Origin: the human T2T-CHM13v2.0 reference genome, Homo sapiens
Length of the DNA stretch: 64,000 bases
Assembly: GCF_009914755.1 (NCBI RefSeq)
Contig: NC_060928.1
Direction: 5' to 3' (one strand)
Part shown: in pieces, positions 99 to 32,569 of the stretch
Numbering within the stretch: the first letter of the stretch is position 1
Layout: each line of letters opens with the position of its first letter
Notes under the pieces: generated by a model
The model's input: the letters and a program-made list of their open reading frames with translations, nothing else
Database searches by the model: none
What the model was told of the DNA's origin: nothing
Program-made: the position numbers and the translations under genes

Positions 99-106
99 AG
101 GAGATA

Positions 107-2986
107 CTTTTTTTTATTATTATTATACTTTAAGTTTTAGGGTACATAAGCACAACGTGCAGGTTTGTTACATATGTATACATGTGCCACGTTGGTGTGC
201 TGCACCCAACAACTCGTCATTTAGCATTAGGTATATCTCCCAATGCTATCACTCCCTGCTTCCCCCACCCCACAACAGTCCCCAGTGTGTGATGTTCCCC
301 TTCCTGTGTCCATGTGTTCTCACTGTTCAATTCCCACCTATGAGTGAGAACATGCGGTGTTTGGTTTTTTGTCCTTGAGATAGTTTCCTGAGAATGATGG
401 TTTCCAGCTTCATCCATGTCCCTACAAAGGACATGAACTCATCATTTTTACGGCTGCATAGTATTCCATGGTGTATATGTGCCACATTTTCTTAATCCAG
501 TCTATCATTGTGGGACATTTGGGTTGGTTCCAAGTTTGCTATTGTGAATAGTGCTGCAATAAACATATGTGTGCATGTGTCTTTATAGCAGCATGATTTA
601 CAATCCTTTGGGTATATACCCAGTAATGTGATGGCTGGGTCAAATGGTATTTTTAGTTCTAGATCCCTGAGGAATCGCCACACCGACTTCCACAATGGTT
701 GAAGTAGTTTACAGTCCCACCAACAGTGTAAAAGTGTTCCTATTTCTCCACATCCTCTCCAGCACCTGTTGTTTCCTGACTTTTTAATGATTGCCATTCT
801 AACTGGTGTGAGATGGTATCTCATTGTGGATTTGCTTTGCATTTCTCTGATGGCCAGTGATGGTGAGCATTTTTTCATGTGTTTTTTGGCTGCATAAATG
901 TCTTCTTTTGAGAAGTGACTGTTTATATCCTTCACCCACTTTTTGATGGGGTTGTTTTTTCTTGTAAACTTGTGGGAGTTCATTGTAGATTCTGAATATT
1001 AGCCCTTTGTCATATGAGTAGGTTGCAAAATTTTGTCCCATTCTATAGGTCGCCTGTTCACTCTGATGGTGGTTTCTTTTGCTGTGCAGAAGCTCTTGAG
1101 TTTAATTAGATACCATTTGTCAATTTTGGCTTTTGTTGCCATTGCTTTTGGTGTTTTAGACATGAAGTCCTTGCCCATGCCTATGTCCTGAATGGTATTG
1201 CCTAGGTTTTCTTCTAGGGTTTTTATGGTTTTAGGTCTAACATTTAAGTCTTTAATCCATCTTGAATTAACTTTTGTATAAGGTGTAAGGAAGGGATCCA
1301 GTTTCAGCTTTCTACATATGGCTAGCCAGTTTTCCCAGCACCATTTGTTGAATAGGGAATCCTTTCCCCATTTCTTGTTTTTGTCAGATTTGTCAAAGAT
1401 CAGATAGTTGTAGATATGCGGCATTATTTCTGAGGGCTCTGTTCTGTTGCATTGGTCTATATCTCTGTTTTGGTATCACTACCATGCTGTTTTGGTTACT
1501 GCAGCCTTGTAGTATAGTTTGAAGTCAGGTAGTGTGATGCCTCCAGCTTTGTTCTTTTGCCTTAGGATTGACTTGGCAATGCGGGCTCTTTTTTGGTTCC
1601 ATATGAACTTTAAAGTAGTTTTTTCCAATTCTGTGAAGAAAGTCATTGGTAGCTTGATGGGGATGGCATTGAATCTATAAATTACCTTGGGCAGTATGGC
1701 CATTTTCATGATATTGATTTTTTCTGCCCATGAGCATGGAATGTTCTTACATTTGTTTGTATCCTCTTTTATTTCATTGAGCAGTGGTTTGTAGTTCTCC
1801 TTGAAGAGGTCCTTCACATCCCTTGTAAGTTGGATTCCTAGGTAATTTATTCTCTTTGAAGCAATTGTGAATGGGAGTTCACTCATTATTTGGCTCTCTG
1901 TTTTCTGTTATTGGTGTATAAGAATGCTTGTGATTTTTGTTCATTGATTTTGTATCCTGAGACTTTGCTGAAGTTGTTTATCAGCTTGAGGAGATTTTGG
2001 GTGGAGACGATGGGGTTTTCTAGATATACAATCATGTCATCTGCAAACAGGGACAATTTGACTTCCTCTTTTCCTAATTGAACACCCTTTATTTCCTTCT
2101 CCTGCCTGATTGCCCTGGCCAGAACTTCCAACACTCTGTTGAATAGGAGTGGTGAGAGAGGGCATCCCTGTCTTGTGCCAGTTTTCAAAGGGAATGCTTC
2201 CAGTTTTTGCCCATTCAGTATGATATTGGCTGTGGGTTTGTCATAGATAGCTCTTATTATTTTGACATACGTCCCATCAATACCTAATTTATTGAGAATT
2301 TTAGCATGAAGCGTTGTTGAATTTTGTCAAAGGCCTTTTCTGCATCTATTGAGATAATCATGTGGTTTTTGTCTTTGGTTCTGTTTATATGTTGGATTAC
2401 ATTTATTGATTTGTGTATGTTGAACCAGCTTTGCATCCCAGGGATGAAGCCCACTTGATCATGGTGGATAAGCTTTCTGATGTGCTGCTGGATTCAGTTT
2501 GCCAGTATTTTACTGAGGATTTTTGCATCGATGTTCATCAAGGATATTGGTCTAAAATTCTCTTTTTTGGTTGTGTCTCTGCCTGGCTTTGGTATCAGGA
2601 TGATGCTGGCCTCATAAAATGAGTTAGGGAGGATTTCCTCTTTTTCTATTGGTTGGAATAGTTTCAGAAGGAATGGTACCAGCTCCTCTTTGTACCTCTG
2701 GTAGAATTCGGCTGTGAATCCATCTGGTCCTGGACTTTTTTTGGCTGGTAGGCTATTGATTATTGCCACAACTTCCGATCCTGTTATTGGTCTATTCAGA
2801 GATTCAACATCTTCCTGGTTTAGTCTTGGGAGGATGTATGTGTCGAGGAATTTATCCATTTCTTCTAGATGTTCTAGTTTATTTGCGTAGAGGTGTTTAT
2901 AGTATTCTCTGATGGTAGTTTGTATTTCTGTGGGATCTGTGGTGATATCCCCTTTATCATTTTTTATTGCGTCTATTTGATTCTTC
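107..2986 (-). mobile_element. LINE-1 (L1PA3/PA4-like), non-inverted 3' part: ORF2 RT and C-terminal domains, 3'UTR, short poly(A)
   Basis: Minus-strand ORFs give L1 ORF2p peptides ([48 protein letters not shown]). The 3'UTR and T-rich tail lie at ~107-326. Frameshifts and stops are present. Confidence 0.97.
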
Positions 2987-3214
2987 GATCAGGCAGCAGC
3001 ATCTGCGGTTCACCAATATCTGCTGTTCTACAGCCACCGCTGCAGATACCCAGGCAAACAGGGTCTGGAATGGACCTCTAGCAAACTCCAACAGACTTGC
3101 AGCTGAGGGTCCTGTCTGTTAAAAGGAAAACTAACAAACAGAAAGGATATCTGCACCAAAAACCCATCTGTACATCACCGTCATCAAAGACCAAAGGTAG
3201 ATAAAACCACAAAG

Positions 3215-30110: not shown

Positions 30111-30655
30111 ATGTGGCTCTTGGGTTACAGGCCAACAGTGTAGGTTGAGATCCCAGTCCAAAGACTGGGCTTAATTTGCTTTTCGTAGAGAGAACTCAGG
30201 AAGATTCTACACAAAAAAGAATAAAGTGGCTTTTAATATTAATTCCTTTTTGGCTAAGTTTTCAAAATGCACCTGTATTGCTATCATAACATATGAGAAT
30301 TTCATGGGCTGTTCTGGAATTTCCAGATCTATTTTTTTAATCTGAATTGACTAATTAGTCCAGGAAGACAATGATGTTGATTTTTTTCAGAATAACTGAC
30401 TGTTTATCTGCACTGAGGCTTAGTAATCTTTCCAGAAATGGCAACCAAATCCTATCCATTCCTTGCTATTGTACTTTCTTTTAATGCCCAAAATAAAGTT
30501 CAGAAGATTTGTAGACATAGCTAGATAATTATTGCTTGCCGAGGAATCATTAAAAGTTTTCTCAGAGCAAGAAAATAAACTGCATTTTAAATAGTATGCT
30601 TTTTAATTATCCTGATGTTGGTGGGTGGGTCCTGTCTTTAAAAGTATCTCCTTTG

Positions 30656-32447
30656 GAATGAACTCCCATTCACAATTGCTTCAAAGAGAATAAAATACCT
30701 AGGAATCCAACTTACAAGGGATGTGAAGGACCTCTTCAAGGAGAACTACAAACCACTGCTCAATGAAATAAAAGAGGACACAAACAAATGGAAGAACATT
30801 CTATGCTCATGGATAGGAAGAATCAATATCGTGAAAATGGCCATACCACCCAAGGTAATTTATAGATGCAATGCCATCCCCATCAAGCTACCAATGACTT
30901 TCTTCACAGAATTGGAAAAAACTACTTTAAAGTTCATATGGAACCAAAAAAGAGCCCGCATTGCCAAGTCAATCCTAAGGCAAAAGAACAAAGCTGGAGG
31001 CATCACGCTACCTGACTTCAAACTATACTACAAGGCTACAGTAACCAAAACAGCATGGTACTGGTACCAAAACAGAGATATAGACCAACAGAGCCCTCAG
31101 AAATAATGCCACATATCTACAACTATCTGATCTTTTACAATCCTGACAAAAACAAGAAATGGGGAAAGGATTCCCTATTTAATATATGGTGCTGGGAAAA
31201 CTGGATAGCCATATGTAGAAAGCAGAAACTGGATCACTTCCTTACACTTTATACAAAAATTAATTCAAGATGGATTAAAGACTTAAATGTTAGACCTAAA
31301 ACCATAAAAACCCTAGAAGAAAACCTAGGCAATACCATTCAGGACATAGGCATGGGCAAGGAATTCATGTCTAAAACAACAAAAGCAACAGCAACAAAAC
31401 AACAAAAGCCAAAATTGACAAATGGGATCTAATTAAACTAAAGAGCTTCTGTACAGCAAAAGAAACTACCATCAGATTGAACAGGCAACCTACAGAATGG
31501 GAGAAAATTTTGCAACCTACTCATCTGACAAAGGGCTAATATCCAGAATCTACAATGAACTCAAACAAATTTACAAGAAAAAAGCAAACAGCCCCATCAA
31601 AAAGTGGGTGAAGGATATAAACAGACACTTCTCAAAAGAAGACATTTATGTAGCCAAAAAACACATGAAAAAATGCTCATCATCACTGGCCATCAGAGAA
31701 ATGCAAATCAAAACCACAATGAGATACCATCTCACACCAGTTAGAATGGCGATCGTTAAAAAGTCAGGAAACAACAGCTGCTGGAGAGGATGTGGAGAAA
31801 TAGGAAAACTTTTACACTGTTGGTGGGACTGTAAACTAGTTCAACCATTGTGGAAGTCAGTGTGGCAATTCCTCAGGGATCTAGAACTAGAAATACCATT
31901 TGACCCAGCCATCACATTACTGGGTATATACCCAAAGGATTATAAAGCATGCTGCTATAAAGACACATGCACACGTATGTTTATAGCAGCACTATACACA
32001 ATAGCAAAGACTTGGAACCAACCTAAATGTCCAACAATAGTCTGGATTAAGAAAATGTGGCACATATACACCATGGAATACTATGCAGCCATAAAAAAGG
32101 ATGAGTTCATGTCCTTTGTAGGGACATGGATGAAGCTGGAAACCATCATTCTCAGAAAACTATCGCAAGGACAAAAAACCAAACACATGTTCTCACTCAT
32201 AGGTGGGAATTGAACAATGAGAACACATGGACACAGGAAGGGGAACATCACACACTGGGGACTGTTGTGGGGTGGGGGAAGGGGGCAGGGCTAGCATTAG
32301 GAGATATACCTAATGCTAAATGACGAGTTAATGGGTGCAGCACACCAACATGGCACATGTATACACATGTAACAAACCTGCACGTTGTGTACATGTACCC
32401 TAAAACTTAAAGTATAATAATAATAAAGTTAAGAAAAAAATAAAAAC
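30656..32447 (+). mobile_element. 5'-truncated LINE-1 (L1PA3/PA4-like): ORF2 C-terminal part, 3'UTR and degraded poly(A)
   Basis: ORF2p peptides ([44 protein letters not shown] ending 32213). Starts after a CTTT/AAAA endonuclease-type site. Confidence 0.97.
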
Positions 32448-32569
32448 AACGATCCAAAAATTTTTTCATAATTCTGGAAATATTTTCATCAGCTATTCCT
32501 ATAAATCATTTAAATATCTTTCTATCATATAAGAAGAGGACCGCAATTAAGACTTAATACTAAAAAAAA

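What the first reader, a model, noticed from the sequence alone, without database searches (positions are those of the whole stretch)
99..32456. Reciprocal target-site-duplication swap between two inverted L1s: footprint of a ~29-32 kb L1-mediated inversion
Seen: neither L1 is flanked by its own matching TSD pair. TSD-A, AAAAGTATCTCCT, follows the poly(A) of L1 #1 (plus-strand AGGAGATACTTTT, 99-111) and recurs exactly (13/13) before the 5' end of L1 #2 (30640-30652), directly after a CTTT/AAAA endonuclease-type site. TSD-B, AAAGATCCA, precedes the 5' end of L1 #1 (plus-strand TGGATCTTT, 5150-5158, in ATTT/AAAG context) and recurs as AACGATCCA (8/9) after the tail of L1 #2 (32448-32456). Established: target-primed reverse transcription puts one TSD on both sides of a single insertion, and crossover between inverted repeats inverts the intervening DNA and exchanges flanks. 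Inference: ancestrally a 1.8-kb L1 sat at the left site and the 5-kb twin-primed L1 at the right site. Recombination in their shared ~1.8 kb (107-1884 vs 30656-32425) flipped everything between, making both L1s chimeric. The minimal inverted segment is ~1885-30655. Because the repeats persist, the inversion could be lineage-specific, polymorphic or recurrent, and short reads would miss it. TSD-B is short and is the weaker half of the evidence. I cannot tell whether this inversion is already catalogued.
Basis: partly seen in the sequence, partly recalled or inferred. Interest (0 to 1): 0.9.

Follow-up and report, generated by a model that had tools for sequence, protein, structure and literature searches.

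The report
Swapped L1 flanks mark old inversion
Two oppositely oriented L1 retrotransposon copies on human chromosome 4 carry each other's insertion scars, the known footprint of a roughly 30-kb inversion made by recombination between them; it is a sound example of a well-known process in a stretch with no annotated gene.

Summary
AAAAGTATCTCCT lies after the poly(A) of the minus-strand L1 (99-111) and just before the 5' end of the plus-strand L1 (30640-30652). It occurs nowhere else in the window. The left copy is also the target-site duplication (TSD) of an Alu that later landed on it. With that Alu set aside, TSD-A grows to 15 nt. TSD-B (AAAGATCCA / AACGATCCA, 8 of 9) is weak: about 1% by chance when position is fixed, not significant in looser tests. 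Its last 3 nt overlap the end of the twin-primed L1, as twin priming predicts. The shared arms (113-1884 / 30656-32427) are 95.1% identical.

Best reading: homologous recombination between two already inserted inverted L1s flipped 28.8-32.3 kb. This is a known kind, retrotransposon recombination-mediated inversion (Lee 2008), which is diagnosed by exactly this TSD swap.

I found no internal trace of the crossover. Age, fixation and catalogue status could not be tested: no other primate or human assembly was available and supplementary tables were closed. The inverted segment holds no annotated gene. Interest is modest.

The parts
1..98 (-). 5' part of an Alu whose body and poly(A) run leftward out of the window. 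It inserted into the 3' TSD of the left L1.
   Evidence: Alu body and T-run at L002 7807-8098. Own TSD AGGAAATACTTT (L002 7791-7802) against AGGAGATACTTT (window 99-110), 11 of 12.
99..111 (-). TSD-A, the copy after the poly(A) of L1#1. It also serves as the 5' TSD of the Alu.
   Evidence: exact reverse complement of 30640-30652 and unique in the window.
107..2986 (-). L1#1 3' segment, with its poly(A) read as a T-run at 108-116. The part 113-1884 is the left recombination arm.
   Evidence: alignment to natural L1 copies L004, L005, L034.
2987..5152 (+). L1#1 inverted 5' segment: end of the 5' UTR, ORF1 start near 3215, and the start of ORF2. This is a twin-priming product.
   Evidence: continuous match to L064 and L065. 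A 293-nt gap of L1 separates its end from the 3' segment, measured on L005.
5150..5158 (-). TSD-B, the 5' copy (AAAGATCCA in L1 sense). Its last 3 nt overlap the L1 end as microhomology.
5159..30639 (.). Segment that lies between the two L1s and was inverted with them. It has no annotated gene. It includes an old LTR-like repeat at about 5175-5748.
   Evidence: Hub annotation in the finding; (40 or more paralogues at 66-75% identity).
30640..30654 (+). TSD-A, the 5' copy in front of L1#2 (15 nt), followed by one extra G at 30655.
30656..32447 (+). L1#2: a 5'-truncated 1.77-kb 3' end of L1 with an A-rich tail at 32425-32447. The part 30656-32427 is the right recombination arm.
32448..32456 (+). 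TSD-B', the 3' copy (AACGATCCA), 8 of 9 to the 5' copy.

Best explanation
Two L1 elements of the same primate-specific subfamily inserted independently, about 25 kb apart and in opposite orientation, by ordinary target-primed reverse transcription. One was a 1.8-kb 5'-truncated copy with a 15-nt TSD (AAAAGTATCTCCTTT). The other was a 5-kb twin-primed copy with a 9-nt TSD (AAAGATCCA). Later, one (or an odd number of) homologous crossover within their shared 1.77 kb inverted everything between the crossover points, at least 1885-30655 and at most 113-32427. Each L1 then kept one flank of its own and gained one from its partner. An Alu later inserted into the left TSD-A copy and duplicated it again.

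Shown: the anatomy, the TSD swap and the twin-priming structure. Inferred: that the exchange went through homologous recombination between pre-existing copies, and its date. From about 2.4% private divergence per copy and a recalled neutral rate, I infer that the L1s are roughly 10-25 million years old. Recombination is easier while repeats are still alike, so the inversion is most likely old and fixed rather than polymorphic.
For: TSD-A is exact, 13 of 13, and unique in 128 kb even with up to 2 mismatches. 0 of 400 random flank pairs reach an exact run of 12. It extends to 15 nt with the Alu set aside. Both TSDs begin at TTT/AAA-type endonuclease sites. TSD-B is 8 of 9 at the exact junctions, with about 1% chance for the fixed 9-mer. 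Its terminal CCA overlaps the end of the inverted L1 segment. That matches the 1-9 bp (median 3 bp) microhomology reported for twin-primed junctions (Porubsky preprint 10.1101/2021.12.20.472354, passages). Neither L1 has a TSD of its own. The arms are 1.77 kb, collinear and 95.1% identical. That lies within the range of L1 pairs flanking known human inversions: 21 of 22 above 90%. The un-inverted reconstruction gives two canonical insertions. The mechanism and this TSD diagnostic are published (Lee 2008, PMC2603318).
Against: TSD-B is short and fails unconstrained tests. The same two flanks share an unrelated exact 9-mer. 18% of T/AAA-context 9-mers match the A-rich flank with at most 1 mismatch. 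5.9% match on their last 6 nt. There is no internal signature of a crossover. The two copies are no more alike than random pairs of the subfamily, 95.1% against a mean of 94.7%. A change-point in private mutations is not significant (p = 0.17). The longest identical run of 138 nt is reached by about 10% of random pairs. Private load is about 2-3% in every segment of both copies. 95% identity is below the 97.2% median for polymorphic L1-flanked inversions. No orthologue or second haplotype was compared, so the un-inverted state has not been seen.
Confidence: 0.8

Rival explanations
1. One-step origin. Two L1 endonuclease staggered breaks about 25 kb apart were each primed for reverse transcription at the same time, and the free ends were joined crosswise. 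That inverts the segment and leaves an L1 at each new junction. Staggered-break inversion (recalled from Drosophila work) also places each duplicated target in inverted orientation at the two breakpoints, which is the same TSD pattern seen here.
For: The TSD layout F1 - A' - L1 - B' - M - A - L1 - B - F2 is what this model predicts as well. The two copies have equal private divergence of about 2.4%. They share 4 rare states against a background mean of 0.56; 3 of 250 random pairs reach 4 or more. That fits the same time and source lineage. There is no trace of a crossover.
Against: It needs two simultaneous integrations within 30 kb plus crosswise joining, and I know of no germline precedent. 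The two copies differ at 9 columns that are polymorphic in the panel and have different tails, so they are not copies of one RNA. Recombination between inverted L1s is documented many times: 21 L1 cases between human and chimpanzee and 22 polymorphic cases. Shared rare states are equally expected for two insertions of one active lineage.
Confidence: 0.07
2. No inversion. The two L1s inserted where they are, without proper TSDs (for example with target-site deletions), and the TSD-A match is a coincidence or has another origin such as the Alu insertion.
For: TSD-B alone could be chance. The left TSD-A copy is also explained as an Alu TSD.
Against: The Alu accounts only for the two left copies. 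It does not account for the third copy, 30 kb away, abutting the 5' end of L1#2. An exact 13-15-mer at that junction is unique in 128 kb and beyond all 400 random flank pairs. An inverted duplication of L1#1's end would put the motif after the poly(A) of L1#2, not before its 5' end.
Confidence: 0.04
3. Assembly artefact: the middle segment was flipped between the two L1 arms when the genome was assembled.
For: An inversion between inverted repeats leaves all four junction sequences unchanged. A mis-join inside the arms would therefore look the same in the sequence alone.
Against: The arms are only 1.77 kb and differ at about 5% of positions. From general knowledge, not tested here, long reads of the kind used for a telomere-to-telomere assembly span and distinguish such arms easily.
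Confidence: 0.02

Closest known systems
Retrotransposon recombination-mediated inversion, L1 class (L1-RMI; Lee et al. 2008, PMC2603318)
   Same: Inverted pair of L1PA-type elements at both breakpoints. Each element is chimeric by inference, with TSDs that match across elements rather than within. The size is in their range (166 bp to 81 kb; more than half of L1 cases exceed 10 kb).
   Different: Their 49 loci were defined by a human-chimpanzee orientation difference and checked by BLAT or PCR. Here only one genome was seen, so the un-inverted state and the lineage are unknown. Their locus list is in supplements I could not open.
Polymorphic human inversions flanked by inverted L1 pairs (Porubsky et al. 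preprint 10.1101/2021.12.20.472354; HsInv0341 with L1PA3 repeats in Aguado et al. 2014, PMC3961182)
   Same: A balanced inversion between inverted L1 copies, attributed to non-allelic homologous recombination. 21 of their 22 pairs exceed 90% identity.
   Different: Those segregate in people. Their median pair identity is 97.2% and median size 5.6 kb. This pair is 95.1% identical and 29-32 kb apart, and polymorphism is untested. The term 'chr4' does not occur in the main text of either paper.
Twin priming of L1 (Ostertag and Kazazian 2001, as described in passages of the Porubsky preprint)
   Same: L1#1 has an inverted 5' segment joined to a 3' segment, an internal gap of L1 sequence, and 3-nt microhomology between the TSD end and the inverted segment.
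   Different: Twin priming explains only the inversion inside L1#1, not the 30-kb inversion. The matching 3' TSD now sits behind the other L1.

Membership tests
L1 recombination-mediated inversion (RRMI) | Two elements of one retrotransposon family in inverted orientation, spanning the two breakpoints | tested here: met
   arms 113-1884 (minus) and 30656-32427 (plus), collinear, 95.1% identical. Both fall in the same subfamily panel.
L1 recombination-mediated inversion (RRMI) | Each element lacks its own TSD pair, and TSDs match reciprocally across the two elements | tested here: met
   TSD-A 13 of 13, or 15 nt with the Alu set aside. TSD-B 8 of 9, weak. The best match between an element's own flanks is 5-6 nt.
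L1 recombination-mediated inversion (RRMI) | Elements are chimeric: a crossover is visible in their sequence | tested here: inconclusive
   51 other genomic copies; 29 copies. Same subfamily and equal private load. Change-point p = 0.17. No unusual identity tract.
L1 recombination-mediated inversion (RRMI) | The opposite orientation is seen in an outgroup or another haplotype | not testable with these tools
   Only this one genome is held (no relatives). Supplementary locus lists were closed.
Twin-primed L1 insertion | The 5' segment is inverted relative to the 3' segment, both come from one L1 with a small gap or overlap, and there is microhomology at the TSD junction | tested here: met
   107-2986 minus, 2987-5152 plus, 293-nt gap on L005. 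L1 ends at 5152, inside TSD-B (CCA).
Polymorphic or recurrent human inversion (InvFEST / Strand-seq call sets) | Both orientations segregate among human haplotypes | not testable with these tools
   No second human assembly was available. Full-text searches and main-text look-ups gave no entry for this locus. Call-set tables are in supplements I could not see.

The most novel reading that the evidence does not exclude
The inversion is young, either human-specific or still segregating or toggling between the two L1 arms, and is absent from inversion catalogues because its 1.8-kb arms hide it from short reads. Or it arose in one step from two coupled L1 integrations joined crosswise, a germline mechanism not yet described.
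Probability: 0.1. Interest if true: 0.55.

Novelty: new member of a known kind. Interest (0 to 1): 0.3.

Why it matters
The finding shows that one assembly, read carefully, can reveal a balanced 30-kb inversion through swapped insertion scars. It also supplies a fully dissected example: a 15-nt and a 9-nt TSD, a twin-primed partner, and a later Alu landing on one scar. The practical weight is small. The mechanism has been known since at least 2008. The inverted segment has no annotated gene; the nearest, LINC02271, starts about 7 kb beyond the right breakpoint. The event is probably old and fixed. It would matter more if it proved polymorphic or recurrent in people, because inversions between 1.8-kb repeats are hard to type and suppress recombination locally. 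It would also matter more if no un-inverted intermediate exists, which would point to a new one-step route.

Tried and rejected
1. Crossover mapping. I aligned both arms with 51 other genomic copies of the subfamily. These came from 58 loci fetched; 5 duplicate loci and 2 loci aligning over less than 1600 nt were dropped. Private mutations number 44 events in L1#1 and 39 in L1#2. The best change-point lies between columns 835 and 845 (left 14 against 23, right 30 against 16), with permutation p = 0.168. This is not significant.

2. Conversion tract. The longest identical run is 138 nt, and 9.7% of 1377 other pairs reach 139 or more. This is not unusual.

3. Age difference between the two ancestral L1s. 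With 29 copies spanning 2.9 kb, private load is 26 events in the 1102 nt unique to L1#1. Across the four quarters of the shared part it is 10, 10, 15, 13 for L1#1 and 9, 14, 10, 11 for L1#2. I saw no contrast.

4. Sub-lineage markers. 9 of 120 differing columns are polymorphic in the panel. By eye from the alignment, most look like CpG sites, so I did not use them.

5. Old repeats straddling the ancestral junctions. Only 5175-5748 is a repeat, and it ends before TSD-B. The other three flanks are unique or hold short fragments only. A partner LTR in the right flank was not found: the only related pieces are 26834-26929, inside the segment, and a 36-nt weak hit at 35074 in the wrong orientation.

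6. A paralogue explanation for locus L005, which aligned through the Alu. It carries a different Alu with a different junction, so this is a coincidence.

7. Catalogue look-up. Four full-text searches and main-text look-ups in four inversion papers gave no entry for this locus.

I used loci already held instead.

9. The record of earlier findings was not open.
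Full report
**What is there**

The window begins inside a minus-strand Alu whose 5' end is at 98. L1#1 follows. Its T-run (poly(A) on the minus strand) is at 108-116. Its 3' segment runs in minus sense to 2986. At 2987 the sequence switches to plus sense and continues through the end of the 5' UTR, the ORF1 start near 3215 and into ORF2, ending at 5152.

Measured on a natural full-length copy (L005), the two pieces are separated by a 293-nt gap of L1 sequence. The plus-sense piece ends at the more 5' position, which is the geometry of twin priming. The stretch 3267-3708, unmasked in NCBI's file, is plain L1 ORF1 (3455 first-look candidates, of which the 39 non-self scored matches are 92-94% identical).

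L1#2 is a 5'-truncated plus-strand copy, 30656-32447 with its A-rich tail. The two L1s share six collinear inverted blocks, 113-1884 against 30656-32427, 93-97% complementary and 95.1% identical overall.

**The observation**

AAAAGTATCTCCT occurs once on each strand of the window. One copy abuts the tail of L1#1 (99-111) and the other lies 3 nt before the 5' end of L1#2 (30640-30652). Even with up to 2 mismatches these are the only two hits in 128 kb. None of 400 random 60 x 67-nt flank pairs shares an exact run of 12 or more.

AAAGATCCA (rc of 5150-5158) against AACGATCCA (32448-32456) is 8 of 9. Each L1's own two flanks share at most 5-6 nt. Both 5' copies follow TTT/AAA sites.

**New detail on TSD-A**

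I fetched 8 kb to the left of the window. The Alu has a TSD of its own: AGGAAATACTTT just beyond its T-run (L002 7791-7802) and AGGAGATACTTT at window 99-110, 11 of 12. So the Alu landed on the 3' TSD of the L1 and duplicated it again, which gives three copies of the motif.

The Alu explains the two left copies but not the third, 30 kb away at the 5' end of L1#2. Beyond the Alu the flank continues, in L1 sense, with TT. This matches 30653-30654, so TSD-A is 15 nt. One extra G (30655) separates it from the first L1 base.

**How strong is TSD-B**

On its own it is weak.
- The same two flanks share an unrelated exact 9-mer 30 nt from the junction.
- 266 of 1481 T/AAA-context 9-mers of the window match the A-rich flank with at most 1 mismatch.
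- 87 of 1481 match on their last 6 nt.
- With the 9-mer fixed by the junction, matches with at most 1 mismatch occur at 26 sites in 128 kb, or about 1% for a 55-nt flank.

In its favour, the L1 sequence ends at 5152. The last three bases of TSD-B (CCA) are therefore also complementary to the L1 RNA at the point where the inverted segment starts, and the 3' copy carries the same CCA. Microhomology of 1-9 bp (median 3) at exactly this junction is reported for twin-primed L1s (Porubsky preprint, passages).

**Interpretation**

Undoing a crossover inside the shared 1.77 kb gives two canonical insertions. One is a 1.8-kb L1 flanked by the 15-nt TSD-A at the left site. The other is a 5-kb twin-primed L1 flanked by the 9-nt TSD-B at the right site, with the middle segment reversed. 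Lee et al. 2008 used non-matching TSDs of breakpoint-spanning elements to tell the derived from the ancestral state. They found 21 L1 cases between human and chimpanzee, more than half of them longer than 10 kb (PMC2603318; abstract, section 7 and methods passages read). The inverted interval is at least 1885-30655 and at most 113-32427.

**Search for independent internal evidence**

I looked for the crossover itself. Own-genome searches with each arm gave 14,344 and 18,600 first-look candidates, of which 40 each were scored. The best non-self matches were 95% identical.

From the 58 loci fetched I dropped 5 duplicates and 2 short alignments and aligned 51 copies with both arms. Of 120 differing columns, 46 are private to L1#1, 55 are private to L1#2, 9 are polymorphic in the panel and 10 are other. 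Collapsed to events (44 against 39), the best change-point is not significant (p = 0.168).

The pair's identity (95.1%) equals the background (mean 94.7%, range 91.2-97.1). They share 4 rare states against a background mean of 0.56, and 3 of 250 random pairs reach 4 or more. That is a mild sign of a common source lineage or of some exchange. The longest identical run of 138 nt is ordinary.

With 29 copies spanning 2.9 kb, private load is about 2-3% in every segment of both L1s. So the two L1s are of one subfamily and similar age. Chimerism can be neither shown nor excluded.

Old repeats did not help either. The only one near a junction (about 5175-5748, 40 or more paralogues at 66-75%; it resembles a MaLR-type LTR from memory) ends before TSD-B. 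The other flanks are unique. No partner LTR sits across the junction.

**Rivals**

A one-step event, with two primed endonuclease breaks joined crosswise, predicts the same TSD layout. It fits the equal ages and the shared rare states. But it needs two simultaneous integrations and has no germline precedent that I know of. I give it 0.07.

Chance or no inversion is excluded for TSD-A by its uniqueness and position. An inverted duplication would put the motif on the wrong side of L1#2. I give these 0.04.

Mis-assembly cannot be excluded from sequence alone, because all four junctions are the same in both orientations. But 1.77-kb arms differing at 5% are easily spanned by long reads (general knowledge, not tested). 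I give it 0.02.

**Age and status**

About 2.4% private divergence per copy and a recalled neutral rate suggest the L1s are roughly 10-25 million years old. The inversion is younger than both. Recombination favours similar repeats, and the median identity for polymorphic L1-flanked inversions is 97.2%. I therefore judge an early, now fixed event most likely. This is inference.

I could not compare any other genome (one search states that there are no relatives). Full-text searches for the band, the coordinates, the neighbouring lncRNA and T2T inversion work gave no entry for this locus. Neither did main-text look-ups in Aguado 2014, the 2026 ultralong-read paper, the Porubsky preprint and Porubsky 2023. 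Whether the inversion is catalogued therefore stays open.

**Verdict**

It is a new, or at least unlocated, member of a well-known kind, in an interval with no annotated gene. Interest 0.3.

Noticed in passing
L002 7791-8098 and window 1-111: An Alu inserted exactly onto the 3' TSD of the L1 and re-duplicated 12 nt of it. The motif therefore exists in three copies: two flanking the Alu (11 of 12 to each other) and one 30 kb away. An unrelated L1 copy (L005) also has a different Alu abutting its tail.
   Followed up: yes
window 5175-5748: An old interspersed repeat, not soft-masked in NCBI's file, with 40 or more paralogues at 66-75% identity that mostly end at the same point near 5175. From memory it resembles the 5' end of a MaLR-type LTR. 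A related fragment lies inverted at 26834-26929.
   Followed up: partly
window 2986/2987 and 5152: The twin-primed L1#1 lacks 293 nt of L1 sequence between its two segments, measured on natural copy L005.
   Followed up: yes
window 32780-32872: A roughly 60-nt stretch of the right flank matches many genomic loci at 80-93% identity. It is probably a fragment of a short interspersed repeat. I did not identify it.
   Followed up: no
window 31086/31087, 31392-31399, 958/959: Private indels: a 10-nt deletion and an 8-nt insertion in L1#2, and a 5-nt deletion in L1#1, relative to nearly all panel copies. They would serve as arm-specific markers for genotyping.
   Followed up: partly
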